Virus record (IMG/VR): IMGVR_UViG_3300020469_000008
Location: 96,001-160,000 of that record
Source: a virus
Taxonomy: Duplodnaviria; Caudoviricetes
DNA: 64,000 nucleotides
Strand: one strand, 5' to 3'
The notes under the pieces are model-generated. The model was not told the DNA's origin and ran no database searches. It was given only the letters and a program-made list of their open reading frames with translations. Made by a program: the position numbers and the translations under genes. Each line of letters opens with the position of its first letter. The stretch's first letter is position 1. This document shows positions 54,374-63,143 of the stretch, one piece after another.

Positions 54374-55023
54374 AAATAACAAGAAGACAGTTAAGAAAAC
54401 TCATCAATGAAATGAGAATTGACACTAAAAATCCATTGGACTTTGTACCTGACGGGCCAATGAAGGACAATGTAATGGATCTAATAAACGATCCGGATAA
54501 AGACGTACAGCGCCAGGGGTATGAGCTAGCTTCTTTAATGCAAGAACCAATAGAGCTTGATGCTGGTGGTGGACAAAAGTACGAAGATATTGGCTACGAA
54601 GGCGAAGATTATTTAAAAGACCTCCGCGCGGGACTATTAAATCGTGAGCAAGTGATCAGTATTTTAGATAATCTATTCGACAAAAATAAAGACTTTGAAG
54701 TACTTTCCTTTCGAGAGGGAGCCGCCCCTTCTGGAAAATTTTCGGGTCAGTACAGGGAAGTATTAAGTGATGACTTTAGTAATCGTGCTGAACGCATAAA
54801 CATTAGTGTAGGTAGTCCGGGTAACAAGCCCGATTATGAAACAGGCGAATTTAGATCAGGGAAATCATTAACTTGGATAAATATTGAACAAGGACTTTAT
54901 TATGACTTTGTTGCAGCAATACGTGTTTCAGATCATGACGATGACAGCAAAGGTCACAAATTAAGAGACGTAATTAGCGCATACATGCTTGCAGTCAATA
55001 TCGTGAGTAAGCATTTAAAATGA
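54370..55023 (+). CDS. MKIT-leader family protein
   Basis: MKITRRQLRKLINE. Confidence 0.85.
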   Translation: MKITRRQLRKLINEMRIDTKNPLDFVPDGPMKDNVMDLINDPDKDVQRQGYELASLMQEPIELDAGGGQKYEDIGYEGEDYLKDLRAGLLNREQVISILDNLFDKNKDFEVLSFREGAAPSGKFSGQYREVLSDDFSNRAERINISVGSPGNKPDYETGEFRSGKSLTWINIEQGLYYDFVAAIRVSDHDDDSKGHKLRDVISAYMLAVNIVSKHLK

Positions 55024-55073
55024 AAATAACAAGAATATATAGAAATCCAATGGCAGCAATTCGGAGTTTTTAA
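55020..55073 (+). pseudogene. Internally deleted leader-family gene remnant (MKITRIYRNPMAAIRSF*)
   Basis: 15-nt family header joined to 39 nt that match the 3' end of gene 57477-57956 at 31/39 positions. Confidence 0.75.
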
Positions 55074-57476: not shown

Positions 57477-57956
57477 ATGAAAATAACAAGAAGACGATTA
57501 AGGAAGATGCTATTAAAAGAGTTTAGAGAAGATGGACGCTATGATGACTTTAACTTCGGCGCCGGCGTAGGCGGTGGCCAATTACCTCCAGTTAAGCCGC
57601 CTAGAAGAGGCGGCGGTGGAGGTGGTGGCGAGGAACCTAGAGACTACCGTGGTAGAAGTAATGATCCTTGCGGTTTTGGTAATCCGAAGGGTGACTACTA
57701 TTATGACTTAGTATTTAATTCTTTTGGTGTTTGGCTTGAATCTAATATGAGTGAAGGAAGTGCTAACGAGTATGATAACTATTTAGATTACTTAAAAAGT
57801 ATTGATTCTGAATTTACTATGGATTTACTTTCTGATAGATATATGGAGTTTTTTGAATTGCTTATGACAGCAATTGCTGAGTATGCATGTAAAAATAACA
57901 TTAGAGATATTGAATCCATATATAGAAACCCGATGTCCGCAATTTTAAATTTTTAA
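57477..57956 (+). CDS. MKIT-leader family protein (Gly/Pro-linker subfamily)
   Basis: MKITRRRLRKMLLKEF...PPVKPPRRGGGGGGG; start trimmed. Confidence 0.8.
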   Translation: MKITRRRLRKMLLKEFREDGRYDDFNFGAGVGGGQLPPVKPPRRGGGGGGGEEPRDYRGRSNDPCGFGNPKGDYYYDLVFNSFGVWLESNMSEGSANEYDNYLDYLKSIDSEFTMDLLSDRYMEFFELLMTAIAEYACKNNIRDIESIYRNPMSAILNF

Positions 57957-58003: not shown

Positions 58004-58453
58004 ATGAATAATAGAACAAACATAACTGCATCCGGAATTATAGTATTTAGAAATAAAAATAATCACCCAGAGATATTAGGATTAGTAGCGCTACCTAAAC
58101 ATAGAAAAAGAAGTAAAGGTAAGTATGACGTACCTAAAGGTAGAATTGATGATGGTGAAACACCAATCCAAGCTGCATACCGGGAATGTTATGAAGAGTG
58201 TGGTTTAGAACCTAAAATTATAAACATAAATGATCCTGTAATACATGGACCATTATGTTTATGGCTTGGGGAAGTGAATCCTGATGATGATGTTGAATTA
58301 ACTGCAAATCCTTATACCGGTGAATATGAGCATGAAGGCTACGAGTGGTTGACAGTAAAAAACATGAAAAGTAATTGTCTGAATTATCTTAGGCCTTTTA
58401 TAACAGAAACAGAAAAAGATATATGGGAACATTTTAAAATCTGGAGAAAATGA
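58004..58453 (+). CDS. NUDIX hydrolase (Ap4A-hydrolase-like)
   Basis: PKGRIDDGETPIQAAYRECYEECGL Nudix box; EHEGYEW. Confidence 0.9.
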   Translation: MNNRTNITASGIIVFRNKNNHPEILGLVALPKHRKRSKGKYDVPKGRIDDGETPIQAAYRECYEECGLEPKIININDPVIHGPLCLWLGEVNPDDDVELTANPYTGEYEHEGYEWLTVKNMKSNCLNYLRPFITETEKDIWEHFKIWRK

Positions 58454-59295
58454 TGCATGTGACAGGTGACACGCCTTTGATACCTATTGGAAACGGTTTA
58501 ATTTGGGCAAAATTAGAAACGCATAACAGAACCGGTTCAGTTAAAGATAGAATGATAAACTACATTATGAATATTGCATTGCAATATAACAATGTTAAAC
58601 CGGGTGTAACTACCATAGTAGAAGCCACTAGTGGTAATACAGGAATATCATTAGCGTCATATGCATCATCAATCGACTGTCCCTGTAAGATTATTATGCC
58701 ACGAAATATGTCTGCACAAAGAAAAGATATGATGCGAGCATTTGGTGCAGAAATAATTGAAACTCCCGACAACGATTTCTTAGGTGCTATTGACATAAGG
58801 AATAGTATGATCGAAGAAACAGATGTATTTTCACCTATGCAATTCTCGAACCCGTTAAATATTGACTGTCACTACAATATCACAGCACCTGAAATATATG
58901 AACAATGTGTTGATTTGATGTTAGACTGGCGAACTTTTGTTCACGGATCTGGTACGGGTGGAACAATGATGGGAGTTAAAAAATATATCGATTTCGCCGG
59001 CTTAAATATAAAATGTGTTCTGACTCAACCAAAAGAAGACAATCTTACACACGGCATACAGGGGATTAACGATGGAGCTGACTTTTTACTGGACCGGTCA
59101 CTGATGGATGCAACGATATCTGTAAAAACAGAAGATGCTATAAAACGGATGAAACAGTTTTGGCAAGAGACGGGAATACTGGTAGGTATTAGTAGTGGTG
59201 CTAATATTTTAGCTGCTGAAAATTACTTAAAAACATTCAATCCGTCTGGTATAATTATAACAGTGCTGTGCGATCGCGGCGAGAGATATTTATGA
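58450..59295 (+). CDS. cysK: Cysteine synthase (PLP-dependent, CysK/CysM family)
   Basis: KLE..N.TGSVKDR, EATSGNTG, GTGGT, IQGI, GISSGA, LCDRGERYL. Confidence 0.9.
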   Translation: MMHVTGDTPLIPIGNGLIWAKLETHNRTGSVKDRMINYIMNIALQYNNVKPGVTTIVEATSGNTGISLASYASSIDCPCKIIMPRNMSAQRKDMMRAFGAEIIETPDNDFLGAIDIRNSMIEETDVFSPMQFSNPLNIDCHYNITAPEIYEQCVDLMLDWRTFVHGSGTGGTMMGVKKYIDFAGLNIKCVLTQPKEDNLTHGIQGINDGADFLLDRSLMDATISVKTEDAIKRMKQFWQETGILVGISSGANILAAENYLKTFNPSGIIITVLCDRGERYL

Positions 59296-59942
59296 AACTA
59301 ACAAGAAGACAATTAAGAAAACTAATAAACGAAACAATCTTTGCAGGTGGGCCAACTGTTGACAGCCCTGACAAAAGCGTAGGGGTGACAGTTGACATGG
59401 GAAGACAAAACCCGCCGATATATCGACCCCAGAGTGACAGAGACGAAGAAATTAGAAGAACAGCAGATCCACGAATTGTCGATCTGTTAGATTCCGATTC
59501 TGAAGCGGACAAGCAAATGGCGAGGACATTAGCTAGCTCTATTGACGGGAAACCAGAGGCGTATGAGACTTTAACTCCGGAGGAGCGCGAAGCACAGGGT
59601 TTGTTTGATGAGTTTTACCCTGAAGATCCGTTTGACGAGCCACACGACATGTCAGGTGATATGGAAAGATCGTACGCTCCTGAGATACAACAGATAAGAA
59701 ATGCTATGAAGAAAAGAATCGAGGATGCTATGGACAAAGGTGCTAGTAGTTTTGACGATTTATATTCAGCTGCTTATACTACACCAGGTTATGATAACCT
59801 GAGAAGACATTTGATGAATTTACCTTTAAACCAAAGGCGGAACGCCAAAGGTGTTTATGGCGACAAACCCGAAGATGAATTAATGAACATGCCCGGTCAA
59901 TTAGTTGACATGTATCAGAAACATGATAGCGATCATTATTAA
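59292..59942 (+). CDS. MKIT-leader family protein
   Basis: MKLTRRQLRKLINE; start trimmed. Confidence 0.85.
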   Translation: MKLTRRQLRKLINETIFAGGPTVDSPDKSVGVTVDMGRQNPPIYRPQSDRDEEIRRTADPRIVDLLDSDSEADKQMARTLASSIDGKPEAYETLTPEEREAQGLFDEFYPEDPFDEPHDMSGDMERSYAPEIQQIRNAMKKRIEDAMDKGASSFDDLYSAAYTTPGYDNLRRHLMNLPLNQRRNAKGVYGDKPEDELMNMPGQLVDMYQKHDSDHY

Positions 59943-59952
59943 AGAGGCTGAA

Positions 59953-60414
59953 GTGAAACTAACAAGAAGACAACTGATCGATCTAATAAACGAAGCAATA
60001 GATCCTGTTAGAGTAAAGACAGTAAAACCTGAGGATTATAATCCTCCCCAAGCTTTCAGCTCTGTCAGTTTAGGAAAGCCAAGGGAGCTTGAGACACCAG
60101 CCAAACGCGTTGGAAACTTTTTTGCCACGCGACTGCCTTACAAACCCCCGCGAGGTTATTCATCATTAAATAAAAGAAAATATTTTTACATGGTTCTTCC
60201 TGACGGTGAGGCTATTAATATTGATCATAGAGATATTAGGATTAACAATCAAAAATTAGTAAATGCATATTTAACGTTATTAAATCAGAAAGTTACACCT
60301 TTACCGATAGAAGATATACATCAACCCACAATTGAAGACGAACAAAATATTCAAAAAATGCGTTCCCAAATTGAGTTGGTTGTTAATGAATTTAAGGCGA
60401 CACATGATATTTAG
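59953..60414 (+). CDS. MKIT-leader family protein
   Basis: GTG start after GAGG; KLTRRQLIDLINE. Confidence 0.8.
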   Translation: MKLTRRQLIDLINEAIDPVRVKTVKPEDYNPPQAFSSVSLGKPRELETPAKRVGNFFATRLPYKPPRGYSSLNKRKYFYMVLPDGEAINIDHRDIRINNQKLVNAYLTLLNQKVTPLPIEDIHQPTIEDEQNIQKMRSQIELVVNEFKATHDI

Positions 60415-60422
60415 ATGTTTGT

Positions 60423-60450
60423 ATGAGTAGAGTAACAGTAATGATACGTG
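60423..60450 (+). repeat. 28-bp direct repeat, copy 1 (duplicate of the start of gene 61662)
   Basis: atgagtagagtaacagtaatgata(c/g)gtg, 27/28 identical to 61662-61689. Confidence 0.9.
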
Positions 60451-60471
60451 TAATAGAGGAAAAAGATACTT

Positions 60472-61128
60472 ATGAAATTAACAAGAAATAAATTAAGAAG
60501 ACTTTTAAAAGAAACAGTGAATGATGCATTTGTAGTTTCAGAAATACAATCTTTTGTAGACAACAACCAATATCTAAAAGGCACCGTAGTAAACGAGCAA
60601 GACTTAATCCATGACACTCGTTATGTTTTATTTGCACCAGAAAGTTCTTTAGGACATATCAAGGACAGACACATGAATGTTGACGCCCCTGGATCAACAA
60701 TGTATCCAGAAGTAGATTTAAGACAAACGATATCAGCAGTCCTCCAAACTCCTGAAACATCATCGCCTGAAGATTTTATGGTAAAGTGGGAAGGAATAGT
60801 TTCACCGGTAGGACCAATTGGCGACATGGGTGTTGCAGCAGCACCAATAGAAACTGTAATGATGATGCAAGATTATCAAATGCCTGGTGGTAGAAATGAA
60901 ATGGTTAAAGTGGCTCAAGGTCAAAGAATGTCGACAGACGAAATTACACTAGTCACTGCAAAATTAGGTCAGTTAACTGACGGAAGGTTGGTTATAAGTT
61001 TAGTAACAATGTATCCTGGCGGTTCAACTGTTGACAGTATACCGATACCTTTTGATAGAAACCAGTTTGCAGCATCAGGATTATATTTTCCTTTACCTGC
61101 GACTAGTCCAATATTAGCAGCTATTTAA
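60472..61128 (+). CDS. MKIT-leader family protein
   Basis: MKLTRNKLRRLLKE. Confidence 0.8.
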   Translation: MKLTRNKLRRLLKETVNDAFVVSEIQSFVDNNQYLKGTVVNEQDLIHDTRYVLFAPESSLGHIKDRHMNVDAPGSTMYPEVDLRQTISAVLQTPETSSPEDFMVKWEGIVSPVGPIGDMGVAAAPIETVMMMQDYQMPGGRNEMVKVAQGQRMSTDEITLVTAKLGQLTDGRLVISLVTMYPGGSTVDSIPIPFDRNQFAASGLYFPLPATSPILAAI

Positions 61129-61139
61129 GGAAATTACAT

Positions 61140-61643
61140 ATGAAAATAACTAGAAGACAGTTGAGAAAGTTAATCCAAGAATCATTGTTACGTGAAGGCG
61201 ACGTTAAAAAAATGAAGTCAACATACGTTCACAATGATGATGCAGAAGCTATAGCTAAAAGTCTGCTTGATACAGACAAGAAAAAACCAACATTTAAGTT
61301 GCACTTAGATAAACACACAGCATACAACGCGTATATCAAACCAACCGGTCAAATATCTGGTAAGTATCATTTTGAACTAATCGATCCAAAGTCTGGTATA
61401 AAATTGGACGGTGGGGGTCACATTGAGTTTCCTGGTTTGAGTGACAAAGAAGGCACTCACCTTGGTGGTGAAATTGAATTAGCAAAACATTTAAAACAAA
61501 GTAATGTCGACGTCTTTTTAAAAGGAGACGCTAGTACACATTTAGGTTTGGATCACGGTAATGTTCACATTTCTGCACCTGACACAGCAATTACATTTGG
61601 TGTTAAGGGAAAAATTGGTAAATCTAAAAAGAAGCATGTATAA
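61140..61643 (+). CDS. MKIT-leader family protein
   Basis: MKITRRQLRKLIQE. Confidence 0.8.
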   Translation: MKITRRQLRKLIQESLLREGDVKKMKSTYVHNDDAEAIAKSLLDTDKKKPTFKLHLDKHTAYNAYIKPTGQISGKYHFELIDPKSGIKLDGGGHIEFPGLSDKEGTHLGGEIELAKHLKQSNVDVFLKGDASTHLGLDHGNVHISAPDTAITFGVKGKIGKSKKKHV

Positions 61644-61661
61644 AAGGAAGGGACAATAAAG

Positions 61662-61689
61662 ATGAGTAGAGTAACAGTAATGATAGGTG
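61662..61689 (+). repeat. 28-bp direct repeat, copy 2
   Basis: Matches 60423-60450. Confidence 0.9.
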
Positions 61690-62642
61690 CTATGAAGCCA
61701 ATGACAGCAGGTCACTATCGTCTTATAACAGAGGCTGTTGCGGATTCACAGTGCCCGGAAGGAGAAACTCCTGCAAACGAGACATATGTTTTAATATCGA
61801 TGCAAGATAGAATCAAGAAGAATCAATTTCCAGTACGTGGCGAAACGGCGTTGTCTGCACTTCGTGATATCTATATGGATCCTGCTTCTGGTTTGTTTGA
61901 GTTTGGTGCTGACAAGTATATTAAAATGATATTTTGTCATTCAAAAAGCTTTGCAGAGAAGAATCCAGATAGATTAATAGAAATGCGAGAAATTGTAGAA
62001 GGAATTAAAGAAGCATTGTCAGCGCGAGGCTTAGCAAATATAACAGCTGAAGTTGAACAGGTAAGGAGCGGACCGCCTGACGTGTTGATGGGTCTAGCTG
62101 AGTCCCGTCCAAATGATAAATTTATTTTGTATACCGGTGATGATGACCTTAAAAAATATCAATATTTTAAACGTTACACGCAAAACGTAGGATTTGCTGG
62201 GTTTGAAAGATTTGAGGGCGGTATGTCTGGGACTGAGGTGCGCTCATTATTCCAAACTGATTCAGACGTTGCTGATTTTGATGCAGAAAGATTTGCTTCT
62301 GCATTCCCACAAGGTGTCGATCCTTCGCTCGTCCGACAGAAATATAGAGCAGATGCTGGTCAAGATCCGTTAAAAGAAGTTAAACGCGCAGACAAAGGCA
62401 CGCCAGAATATTCAACTTATCTTGAAAAAATGATGGACGAGTTAAAATACATTAAATCAGGCTATGATTCTAGAAAAAAAGCAAGTGCAAGATATAGAAA
62501 AGAAGCTAGCAAAATACAAGACGCATATTCTGAATTAAGAAAACTTAAAAGAAAAAACGATAAGCTATTACATTCAGATGAAAAAGAATCGTTTGATAGG
62601 AAAGCATTAAAAGAGTGGTTTAAGAAAACATACAAAAAATAG
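61662..62642 (+). CDS. Cytidylyltransferase-like (HxGH) nucleotidyltransferase domain protein
   Basis: GAMKPMTAGHY motif, G.DD, GMSGTEVR. Confidence 0.7.
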   Translation: MSRVTVMIGAMKPMTAGHYRLITEAVADSQCPEGETPANETYVLISMQDRIKKNQFPVRGETALSALRDIYMDPASGLFEFGADKYIKMIFCHSKSFAEKNPDRLIEMREIVEGIKEALSARGLANITAEVEQVRSGPPDVLMGLAESRPNDKFILYTGDDDLKKYQYFKRYTQNVGFAGFERFEGGMSGTEVRSLFQTDSDVADFDAERFASAFPQGVDPSLVRQKYRADAGQDPLKEVKRADKGTPEYSTYLEKMMDELKYIKSGYDSRKKASARYRKEASKIQDAYSELRKLKRKNDKLLHSDEKESFDRKALKEWFKKTYKK

Positions 62643-62651
62643 GAGACTGCC

Positions 62652-63143
62652 TTGTCACTAGAACTAGACACCAAAGCATATTGGAAAGATTGTGACGGCA
62701 ATGATTACGATGATGAGTTTATTAAGAAAGAAATTGAAGGATATGTGGCCCAAGGTGGTAGAGTATACGTGGGTACTGACAGTATGCTTCTTGCTCATAA
62801 GTGCAATTTTGCTTCTGTGATTGCATTTCACTCCCGTGATCTAAATATCGCAAGGTACTATTACAAGCGTTTTAAAACCGGATCTGTCGAGTATAAGGAG
62901 TTACAAGTAAAGATTTTAGAAGAGGTGGCACTTGCAATACAAACAGCACAATTTGTTCTCAAACTTTGCCCGGATGCTGATGTAGAATTACATATAGATA
63001 TAGGTACAAAGAAACGCAACGCCACTGCACGTTTTTTTAAAACAATCCAAGGTTGGGTAATAGGCACCGGATTTGATTTAAAAGTCAAACCAAATAGTTG
63101 GGCTTCGTCGCTAGCTGATGGTCACACAAAGGGGAAAAAATGA
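62652..63143 (+). CDS. RNase H-like YkuK family protein
   Basis: VYVGTDS, EV..A, ELHIDIG, VKP.SWA...AD.HTK. Confidence 0.8.
   Translation: MSLELDTKAYWKDCDGNDYDDEFIKKEIEGYVAQGGRVYVGTDSMLLAHKCNFASVIAFHSRDLNIARYYYKRFKTGSVEYKELQVKILEEVALAIQTAQFVLKLCPDADVELHIDIGTKKRNATARFFKTIQGWVIGTGFDLKVKPNSWASSLADGHTKGKK

What the first reader, a model, noticed from the sequence alone, without database searches (positions are those of the whole stretch)
60423..61689. 28-bp direct repeat brackets two leader-family genes inserted at the start of a nucleotidyltransferase gene
The first 28 nt of gene 61662 recur (27/28) at 60423, where the frame soon terminates. The 1,239-bp unit between repeat starts holds exactly two MKIT-leader genes. 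Recombination between the repeats would excise both and leave an intact gene. This resembles target duplication or attachment-site restoration, suggesting the leader genes move as cassettes. No integrase is visible in the window.
Basis: partly seen in the sequence, partly recalled or inferred. Interest (0 to 1): 0.7.

Follow-up and report, generated by a model that had tools for sequence, protein, structure and literature searches.

The report
Recombination scar stacking phage gene cassettes
The repeat is real, but it is a recombination scar, not an attachment site: a stranded start of the nucleotidyltransferase gene fused to a stranded end of the upstream gene, showing how an ocean T4-like phage stacked two alternative sets of variable genes at one hot spot without an integrase.

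Summary
Window 60423-60450 repeats the start of gene 61662 at 27/28 positions (24 exact), with 0 matches in 100 shuffles. The 1,239-bp unit holds exactly two leader genes.

The locus therefore reads CysK-L1-L2-[NT start | CysK end]-L3-L4-NT. This is a head-to-tail join of two versions of one locus.

- In over 20 relatives, CysK overlaps NT directly (ATGA), which is the ancestral empty site.
- About nine other cassette contents fill this site, always starting at that ATGA.
- Contig L010 has CysK directly followed by L3. L3 is 93% identical in nucleotides there, against 74% for CysK.
- L010 and L011 carry a second, independent NT-start/CysK-end scar, joined in a 7-nt microhomology.
- The 202-kb record has no tyrosine or serine recombinase, but it does have a RecA/UvsX-like gene.

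Best reading: microhomology-mediated unequal recombination, as shown experimentally in T4. Cassette mobility is supported; target duplication and att-site restoration are not. The process is of a known kind and of moderate interest. The scan has found similar scars on other DNA.

The parts
58450..59295 (+). PALP (cysteine-synthase-like, 'CysK') gene. It is the conserved left flank of the hot spot, and its TGA overlaps the ATG of the next gene (ATGA).
   Evidence: Pfam PF00291, E 4.5e-55. Its end abuts NT directly in more than 20 relatives.
59292..59942 (+). Cassette gene L1 (216 aa, leader MKLTRRQLRKLINE).
   Evidence: Its homologue in L009 is 88% identical in nucleotides but sits at another place, upstream of the Gly-rich leader gene. 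Homology starts exactly at the ATG and runs into the next leader.
59953..60414 (+). Cassette gene L2 (153 aa, GTG start, leader VKLTRRQLIDLINE).
   Evidence: Homologues were found only on short contigs in other contexts.
60423..60448 (+).
   Evidence: 24/24 exact, 27/28 overall; 0/100 shuffles.
60449..60475 (+). CysK' remnant: a diverged copy of the last 27 nt of a CysK gene (reads C N R G K R Y L stop). It still overlaps the L3 start by ATGA and supplies its GAGG ribosome-binding site.
   Evidence: 25/27 to the CysK ends of L005/L085/L088, 21/27 to L010, and 19/27 to the window's own CysK end. It is the only match in the window, 0/100 shuffles. Nucleotide homology to L010 starts exactly at 60449.
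60423..60491 (+). 22-codon mini-ORF created by the scar (MSRVTVMIRVIEEKDTYEINKK). It is probably not functional.
   Evidence: Translation. No ribosome-binding site upstream. No RNA structure, z = 0.5.
60472..61128 (+). Cassette gene L3 (218 aa, leader MKLTRNKLRRLLKE, conserved H-x-KDRHM motif).
   Evidence: In L010, a copy 95% identical in protein (93% in nucleotides) sits directly after CysK. Alignment A2.
61140..61643 (+). Cassette gene L4 (167 aa, leader MKITRRQLRKLIQE).
   Evidence: Apart from the query's own sequence, the word-based search found one relative, at 48%.
61662..62642 (+). Intact nucleotidyltransferase (NT) gene, the conserved right flank of the hot spot. Positions 61662-61689 are the downstream repeat copy.
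   Evidence: AlphaFold model with pLDDT 84.5. Foldseek hits NMNAT, PPAT and TmcAL. Invariant G17-H18 and S189-G190-T191..R194.
55020..55073 (+). Second, different scar in the same cassette array: 15 nt of leader start fused to the last 39 nt of a paralogue of gene 57477-57956.
   Evidence: 31/39 nt; IYRNPMAAIRSF versus IYRNPMSAILNF.

Best explanation
The repeat is one half of a recombination scar. In an uncultured marine T4-like jumbo phage, the junction between a PALP/CysK-like gene and a nucleotidyltransferase (NT) gene is a hot spot. Here, genes that start with the leader MKITRRQLRKLIxE are swapped in and out. In the ancestral state the two flank genes overlap by ATGA. In this phage, two versions of the locus were joined head to tail. 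Position ~26 of NT, from a version carrying L1-L2, was joined to position -27 of CysK, from a diverged version carrying L3 (now followed by L4). The result is CysK-L1-L2-[NT'|CysK']-L3-L4-NT. The join used at most 2-3 nt of microhomology. I infer an unequal, microhomology-mediated crossover between co-infecting relatives or concatemer copies, carried out by the phage's general recombination and replication machinery with no dedicated recombinase. The leaders (35-45 nt, up to 95% identical) and the conserved flank-gene ends serve as portable homology for ordinary cassette exchange. The 24-28-bp repeat could in turn mediate loss of L3-L4. Shown: the scar's anatomy, the empty and alternative alleles, the donor-type CysK-L3 adjacency, a second independent scar, and the absence of integrases. 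Inferred: the molecular route and which enzymes acted.
For: (1) Anatomy. The NT' remnant (24/24, 27/28) is directly followed by a 27-nt CysK end that keeps the ATGA overlap with L3. Both matches gave 0/100 in shuffles.
(2) The CysK' remnant fits other lineages' CysK ends (25/27) far better than the resident one (19/27), so unit 2 came from a diverged phage.
(3) The donor arrangement exists. In L010, CysK is directly followed by L3, and nucleotide homology to the window starts exactly at 60449. L3 is 93-94% identical while the flanking CysK is 74%.
(4) CysK|NT with direct ATGA overlap occurs in more than 20 contigs, spanning 43-82% NT identity, so it is ancestral.
(5) The site is hyperpolymorphic. 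About nine other contents occur, each starting at the CysK ATGA. This holds even among contigs with an identical NT protein, for example L003 versus L005.
(6) An independent second scar exists. In L010/L011, 18 nt of NT start are joined to the CysK end within the shared AACAGTA. It is followed by a gene 88% identical in nucleotides to the single cassette of L009 at this same site.
(7) No tyrosine or serine recombinase was found in the 202-kb record. A RecA/UvsX-like gene is present, and the T4-type head genes Gp23 and Peptidase_S77 are present.
(8) In phage T4, tandem segmental amplifications arise readily by recombination between 2-10-bp microhomologies, leaving one copy at the junction (PMC9391042, read).
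(9) The structure is stable across ten independent assemblies and four sequencing runs.
Against: Neither presumed parent allele was found whole. No contig shows L2 directly followed by intact NT, and none shows CysK-L3-L4-NT. In L010, L3 is followed by the scar and not by L4, so L4 may have a separate history. The window's junction has only 2-3 nt of possible microhomology plus one or two unexplained substitutions, so the exact breakpoint is uncertain by about 3 nt. The sequence alone cannot tell a linear unequal crossover from integration of a circularised fragment, or from a duplication followed by replacement. The record is about 70% complete by CheckV, so a recombinase gene could lie in the missing part.
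Confidence: 0.75

Rival explanations
1. Campbell-type integration of a mini-circle. A fragment [CysK end-L3-L4-NT start] was excised or circularised from another phage genome. Its closing junction is the NT'|CysK' join. It then integrated by a single homologous crossover within the conserved first ~24 nt of NT. The product is identical to what is seen, and the repeats would be functional 'recombinase-free att sites'.
For: The product's topology is exactly what a single crossover of such a circle would give. The NT 5' end is the best-conserved 30-nt stretch of the gene among relatives (0.90 mean pairwise identity, against a median of 0.77 for the other nineteen 30-nt windows of the gene's first 600 nt), so it offers homology across lineages. 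Recombinase-free mini-circles carrying ORFans have been shown by inverse PCR in the T4-type phages RB49 and phi1 (PMC2839356).
Against: There is no direct evidence of circles. No contig in four runs shows a joint going back 1,239 bp, although contigs cannot show rare forms. The model needs two events (circularisation by an illegitimate join, then integration through only ~24 bp), where the linear model needs one illegitimate join plus ordinary homology downstream. No repeated promoter/stem-loop element flanks the cassettes, unlike PeSL.
Confidence: 0.15
2. Tandem duplication within one genome, followed by replacement. The segment from CysK -27 to NT +26 first duplicated in tandem, as in T4 amplifications. 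Later, homologous exchange with relatives replaced the cassette content of one copy.
For: Tandem segmental amplification through microhomology is frequent in T4 (PMC9391042). Leaders and flank ends provide homology for later replacement.
Against: The CysK' remnant differs from the resident CysK end at 8 of 27 positions, but from other lineages' ends at only 2 of 27. It is therefore more simply foreign from the start. This model needs an extra step, and T4-type tandem duplications of identical units are unstable.
Confidence: 0.07
3. One reading: a mobile element that duplicates its target, or restores an attachment site, through a dedicated integrase or transposase encoded elsewhere.
For: A direct repeat brackets a discrete two-gene unit, and excision would restore the gene. 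The genome record is incomplete.
Against: The upstream copy is fused to a remnant of the other flanking gene, which neither a target duplication nor an att core explains. PF00589 and PF00239 are absent from the 202 kb. The unit has no terminal inverted repeats. L3 and L4 have no Pfam or PHROG match. The second scar has a different junction point, so the joins are not site-specific.
Confidence: 0.02

Closest known systems
Microhomology-mediated tandem segmental amplification and unequal recombination in phage T4 (dmd-tifA locus, Srikant et al. 2022, PMC9391042; earlier rII and gene 16-18 'Hp17' duplications cited there)
   Same: A T4-type phage; a head-to-tail junction that joins a downstream flank to an upstream flank; 2-10-bp microhomology with one copy left at the junction (7 nt in L010/L011, at most 3 nt in the window); no dedicated recombinase; the repeats can later mediate loss.
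   Different: Here the two tandem units carry different genes and a diverged flank remnant, so the event stacked two alleles, probably from two co-infecting phages, instead of amplifying one gene. It is seen as a fixed natural variant in ocean metagenomes, not under laboratory selection.
PeSL mobile regulatory cassettes of T4-type phages (Arbiol et al. 2010, PMC2839356; PMC4122927)
   Same: ORFan cassettes in hyperplastic regions are inserted, deleted and replaced between close relatives by recombination at short repeated sequences, without an integrase. Mini-circles are a possible vehicle.
   Different: No early promoter plus stem-loop terminator flanks these cassettes. The repeated homology is coding sequence (the 35-45-nt leader and the ends of conserved flank genes), and the genes are translationally coupled in one array.
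T-even internal-protein (IP) loci with the capsid targeting sequence (CTS) (reviewed in PMC3012670; locus polymorphism recalled from Repoila et al. 1994, not read here)
   Same: Diverse, fast-changing genes share only a short N-terminal leader ending in a prohead-protease-type (L/I)-x-E site. The phage encodes a gp21-type Peptidase_S77. Of 110 non-redundant leader proteins, 103 have E at positions 13-16.
   Different: The leader sequence is unrelated to T4's MKTYQEFIAE. There are at least 16 such genes in this genome, against a handful in T4. Packaging and cleavage are untested.
Homology-facilitated illegitimate recombination and Campbell-type insertion-duplication (bacterial transformation literature: de Vries & Wackernagel 2002; recalled, not read here)
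   Same: One side is anchored by homology (NT and downstream) and the other is joined illegitimately at a few nucleotides of microhomology. This leaves a displaced gene start next to imported DNA.
   Different: It occurs between phage genomes during infection, not by uptake of DNA into a bacterial chromosome.

Membership tests
Transposon or IS target-site duplication | A transposase gene inside the bracketed unit | tested here: not met
   The unit's only two genes, L3 and L4, have no Pfam or PHROG match.
Transposon or IS target-site duplication | Terminal inverted repeats just inside the direct repeats | tested here: not met
   No inverted repeat at 60451 or 61661. Inside the left repeat lies a CysK 3' remnant.
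Integrase-mediated attL/attR duplication (including integron attC cassettes) | A tyrosine or serine recombinase in the genome | tested here: not met
   PF00589 and PF00239 are absent from the 202-kb record, while the control genomes score. The record is about 70% complete.
Integrase-mediated attL/attR duplication (including integron attC cassettes) | A fixed crossover point or structured recombination site shared by independent insertions | tested here: not met
   The two independent scars have different junction points, NT nt ~26 versus nt 18. There is no hairpin at the scar, z = 0.5.
PeSL cassettes of T4-type phages | An early promoter plus stem-loop terminator motif flanking each cassette | tested here: not met
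   Promoter-like sites: 16, against 20.2 expected. No plus-strand terminator at cassette borders.
Microhomology-mediated tandem (head-to-tail) recombination junction, T4 type | The junction joins sequence downstream of the unit to sequence upstream of the unit, in the same orientation | tested here: met
   The NT 5' start is fused to the CysK 3' end at 60423-60475, and again in L010 1625-1672 and L011 661-708.
Microhomology-mediated tandem (head-to-tail) recombination junction, T4 type | Short microhomology present once at the junction | tested here: met
   L010/L011: AACAGTA is shared by NT codons 4-6 and the CysK end. Window: only TG or GTG, which lies within the 2-10-bp range reported for T4.
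Microhomology-mediated tandem (head-to-tail) recombination junction, T4 type | The phage has T4-type general recombination machinery | tested here: inconclusive
   A RecA/UvsX-family gene is present, E 1.6e-67, as are T4-type Gp23 and Peptidase_S77. Other recombination genes were not examined, and the replicase is DnaE-type.
T4-type capsid-targeting-sequence cargo (for the cassette genes) | A shared N-terminal leader ending in an (L/I)-x-E prohead-protease site, with the protease encoded by the phage | tested here: met
   Leader consensus over 110 proteins, with E at positions 13-16 in 103. Peptidase_S77 at C1:41943-42356.
T4-type capsid-targeting-sequence cargo (for the cassette genes) | The proteins are packaged in the head and the leader is cleaved off | not testable with these tools
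   Needs virion proteomics or N-terminal sequencing.
HIGH-motif (cytidylyltransferase-like) nucleotidyltransferases (for gene 61662) | A Rossmann-like fold with an N-terminal (H/T)xGH motif and a C-terminal ISxTxxR-like motif | tested here: met
   Model with pLDDT 84.5. Foldseek probability 0.96-1.0 to NMNAT, PPAT and NadD, with TM by target 0.4-0.6. Invariant T15-x-G17-H18 and S189-G-T-E-x-R194. There is no direct Pfam hit; distant homologues carry PF08218.

The most novel reading that the evidence does not exclude
The conserved ends of the two flank genes (CysK 3' end and NT 5' start, which share TAACAGTA) act as a recombinase-free 'attachment' pair. Units of [CysK end-cassettes-NT start] are regularly excised as mini-circles, packaged or exchanged during co-infection, and re-integrated. 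On this reading, leader-tagged, probably capsid-delivered effector genes travel between marine jumbo phages as true mobile cassettes, an integron-like system run by general recombination.
Probability: 0.12. Interest if true: 0.65.

Novelty: new member of a known kind. Interest (0 to 1): 0.38.

Why it matters
The scar is a clean natural record of how a hypervariable gene array in an abundant ocean phage lineage grows. Two alternative alleles of one hot spot were stacked by a sloppy head-to-tail join, with the breakpoint readable to within about 3 nt. The same kind of event happened independently in a related phage. It links laboratory observations in T4 (amplification through microhomology) to natural populations. 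It also shows that leader-tagged genes, which are candidate capsid-delivered proteins, move between phages whose backbone genes are only about 75% identical. For annotation, it warns that short 'gene-start' duplicates next to orphan genes are scars, not att sites. It does not reveal a new kind of mobile element.

Tried and rejected
- Phage GenBank collection: blastn of 59900-62700 and tblastn of NT gave no match.
- IMG/VR scan for the NT start 18-mer: apart from the L001 contig, it returned only unrelated genes that happen to begin MSRVTV or MSRATV.
- IMG/VR scans with L4 and L2: no relatives.
- Search for the parental 'allele A' (L2 directly before intact NT): L2 homologues from the exhaustive search lie on 0.5-1.2-kb contigs in other contexts.
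- Search for 'allele B' (CysK-L3-L4-NT): L4 has one distant homologue, on a 773-bp contig.
- Reads: only Logan contigs were on offer. Laid on 59000-62800 for four runs, they span the scar but show no joint 60450>61690 (deletion) and none going back 1,239 bp (circle or tandem). Contigs drop rare variants, so this says nothing either way. Two listed joints (59328>61140 and 61064>62403) have sides of 29 and 20 nt, and the first is leader to leader, so I disregarded both.
- Structure of L3: AlphaFold with 5 sequences gave pLDDT 36, so no fold search was run.
- Profile searches of L3 and NT against PDB sequences: nothing.
- Atlas leads for L3 (CdiA-CT RNase A-like at 0.85, EndoU at 0.80) are below the reliable range.
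- RNA structure at the scar: none.
- Promoter or terminator pattern at cassette borders: not above chance.
- P0002 (316-aa NT variant): no contig on record.
- Dating the event from the 24/24 identity: rejected, because the NT 5' end is nearly invariant in nucleotides among relatives.

Full report
**1. What the window is.** The window is bases 96001-160000 of a single 202,054-bp viral contig with 36.6% G+C. The record encodes these proteins:
- a T4-type major capsid protein (Gp23, E 3.7e-65) and a gp21-type prohead protease (Peptidase_S77, E 5e-29);
- a RecA/UvsX-family protein;
- a DnaE-type polymerase, a GroEL-like chaperonin and a peptidoglycan-binding protein.

It is therefore an uncultured marine T4-like jumbo phage. 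CheckV rates the record about 70% complete. At least 16 genes begin with the leader M-K-(I/L)-T-R-R-Q-L-R-K-L-I-x-E, and four of them fill the interval studied here.

Positions 60423-60450 and 61662-61689 match at 27/28, with the first 24 exact. With up to three mismatches these are the only two matches in the window, and 100 dinucleotide-preserving shuffles gave none. Genome-wide, this is the only short repeat of its size that is neither a leader start nor one of the promoter-like motifs of the last 8 kb of the record.

The unit of 1,239 bp holds exactly two leader genes, L3 (60472-61128) and L4 (61140-61643). The upstream copy opens a 22-codon frame that ends inside L3. Ten contigs from independent assemblies carry the whole arrangement at 99.8-100% identity. 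Unitigs from four runs of four different studies span the upstream copy. It is not an assembly artefact.

The 27 nt that follow the upstream copy (60449-60475) read C-N-R-G-K-R-Y-L-stop, and their TGA overlaps the ATG of L3. The PALP/CysK-like gene 1.1 kb upstream (58450-59295; PF00291, E 4.5e-55) ends C-D-R-G-E-R-Y-L-stop, with the same ATGA overlap onto the next gene.

The remnant matches CysK ends as follows:

| CysK end compared | Matches out of 27 |
|---|---|
| Related phages L005/L085/L088 | 25 |
| L010 | 21 |
| The window's own CysK | 19 |

The relatives' version of this 27-mer matches the window only here, with 2 mismatches and 0/100 shuffles. The scar is therefore [first ~26 nt of NT][last 27 nt of a foreign CysK]. 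The locus reads CysK-L1-L2-[NT'|CysK']-L3-L4-NT. This is a head-to-tail join of two versions of one locus.

**4. Evidence from relatives.** The searches for relatives of NT gave about 70 related loci.

- *Ancestral state.* In more than 20 loci, spanning 43-82% NT protein identity, the CysK stop overlaps the NT start directly (ATGA). Examples are L001, L003, L004, L006-L008, L037, L038, L042-L046, L048, L049, L051, L057, L058, L060, L062, L067, L069 and L076. This is the ancestral, empty site.
- *Filled alleles.* In other loci the junction is filled, always starting at that same ATGA:

| Content at the CysK/NT junction | Loci |
|---|---|
| 275-aa gene | L005, L033, L079, L085 |
| 169-aa gene | L035, L036, L039 |
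| Three genes | L032 |
| 250-aa gene | L056 |
| 80-aa gene | L088 |
| 348-aa gene | L099 (and a broken version in L103) |
| Gene beginning MRITRRQLRKLIAEHMIK | L009 |

- *Polymorphism within a lineage.* Contigs with an identical NT protein can be empty (L003) or filled (L005).
- *Donor arrangement for L3.* A copy of L3, 95% identical in protein and 93% in nucleotides, lies on contig L010 directly after CysK, with the ATGA overlap. Nucleotide homology between L010 and the window begins exactly at 60449, the first base of the CysK' remnant.
- *Cassettes are more alike than the backbone.* L010's CysK is only 74% identical in nucleotides to the window's. Likewise L1 is 88% identical to a gene of L009 whose CysK is 75% identical. 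That L009 gene lies at a different place, and its homology starts exactly at the leader ATG and runs into the next leader. The cassettes have therefore moved between phage lineages.

**5. A second, independent scar.** Downstream of L3 in L010 (1625-1672) and L011 (661-708), 18 nt of NT start are fused to 30 nt of CysK end. The join falls within AACAGTA, a 7-nt microhomology that NT codons 4-6 share with the CysK end.

This scar is followed by a leader gene that is 88% identical in nucleotides to the single cassette occupying the CysK|NT site in L009. The homology begins inside the CysK' remnant. L010/L011 are therefore also stacks of two alleles (L3, then the L009-type gene). The junction point differs from the window's, and the scar lies on the other side of L3.

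A pattern scan of all fetched loci and the whole genome found such NT'|CysK' fusions only at these places. A different kind of scar lies in the same array of the window at 55020-55073: 15 nt of leader start joined to the last 39 nt of a paralogue, matching 31/39.

**6. Mechanism.**

*Shown.* The join links a downstream flank to an upstream flank in direct orientation. Microhomology at the join is 7 nt in L010/L011 and at most 2-3 nt in the window. No tyrosine or serine recombinase is present in the 202 kb. The cassette genes have no family match. No inverted repeats, hairpin or promoter/terminator motif marks the borders.

*Known.* T4 readily forms tandem segmental amplifications by recombination between 2-10-bp microhomologies, leaving one copy at the repeat junction (PMC9391042). 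T4-type phages also shuffle ORFan cassettes without integrases, possibly through mini-circles (PMC2839356).

*Inferred.* An unequal, microhomology-mediated crossover occurred between two co-infecting relatives that carried different cassettes at this site. Alternatively, it occurred between concatemer copies. Ordinary homology in NT or further downstream resolved the other side.

*Alternatives the sequence cannot exclude.* One is single-crossover integration of a circularised fragment through the ~24-nt NT homology. The other is duplication within one genome followed by replacement of one unit; the foreign-looking CysK' remnant argues against this second one. The 24/24 identity does not date the event, because the NT 5' end is the best-conserved part of the gene among relatives.

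**7. The genes.**
- *NT.* It folds confidently (pLDDT 84.5). It matches NMNAT, PPAT, NadD and TmcAL nucleotidyltransferases, and the G-H and S-G-T..R motifs are invariant. 'Nucleotidyltransferase' is therefore sound, but the substrate is unknown.
- *L1-L4.* None has a family match. L3 relatives keep an H-x-KDRHM motif. Its model failed, and the Atlas leads to RNase-like toxin domains are weak.
- *The leader.* It is conserved through residue 12, with E at positions 13-16 in 103 of 110 non-redundant proteins. Together with the gp21-type protease, this fits a T4-like capsid-targeting sequence (PMC3012670). I reached this idea before reading the earlier notes that also make it. It is untested.

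**8. Verdict.** The process is of a known kind. Earlier follow-ups of this scan describe comparable scars on other DNA. What this case adds is a well-resolved natural example of stacking two heterologous alleles in an abundant marine phage lineage, seen in two independent events. Interest is moderate.

Noticed in passing
window 55020-55073: An 18-codon mini-ORF made of the first 15 nt of the leader fused to the last 39 nt of a paralogue of gene 57477-57956 (31/39 nt). It is a deletion or recombination scar inside the cassette array.
   Followed up: yes
L036 4382-5095 and L039 6332-7045: In these relatives a 237-aa leader-type gene (MKIRQSELKVIIENYLLEQ...) sits between NT and the RNaseH-like gene, again starting at an ATGA overlap with the preceding stop. 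The NT|RNaseH junction is therefore a second insertion point.
   Followed up: partly
window 60472-61128 (L3); alignment A2: L3 relatives keep an invariant H-x-K-D-R-H-M motif. Language-model look-alikes include CdiA-CT RNase A-like and EndoU clusters at low scores (0.80-0.85), so L3 is a possible nuclease-type effector. The AlphaFold model was unusable (pLDDT 36).
   Followed up: partly
L013 1844-2518: The most distant L3 homologue (45%) lies next to terminase, T4-type portal and Peptidase_S77 genes in another T4-like contig. It has a different N-terminus (MKSMKLIMENFNKFLAEQ), so the leader appears to be lineage-specific while the cargo domain is shared.
   Followed up: no
L103 307-1261 versus L099 1354-2400: Two contigs have an identical NT protein. 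In L099 the 348-aa cassette gene is intact; in L103 it is split into 209-aa and 125-aa frames by an internal deletion or frameshift, so the cassette is decaying in place.
   Followed up: partly
window 61204-61678 (L4), runs X3 and X20: Contigs of two runs carry a second L4 variant with 32-38 differences over 346-475 nt (about 90-92% identity), in X3 alongside the reference form. Diverged L4 alleles therefore co-occur in the same samples.
   Followed up: no
genome C1:194019-201889 (outside the window): A family of 23-57-nt near-identical motifs (AAAGTGCAAC...GTATACTA...ACAACCAA) recurs at least eight times in the last 8 kb of the record. It looks like a repeated promoter or regulatory element.
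   Followed up: no
window 58004-62642: NUDIX hydrolase, PALP enzyme and an NMNAT-like nucleotidyltransferase are conserved neighbours in all relatives. This may be a nucleotide or NAD-related module, and recalls phage NatV-type NMNAT/Nudix enzymes (from memory, untested).
   Followed up: no
genome C1:179971-180574 and 195775-196378 (outside the window): A 604-nt pair of paralogous segments at 71% identity, 15.8 kb apart.
   Followed up: no
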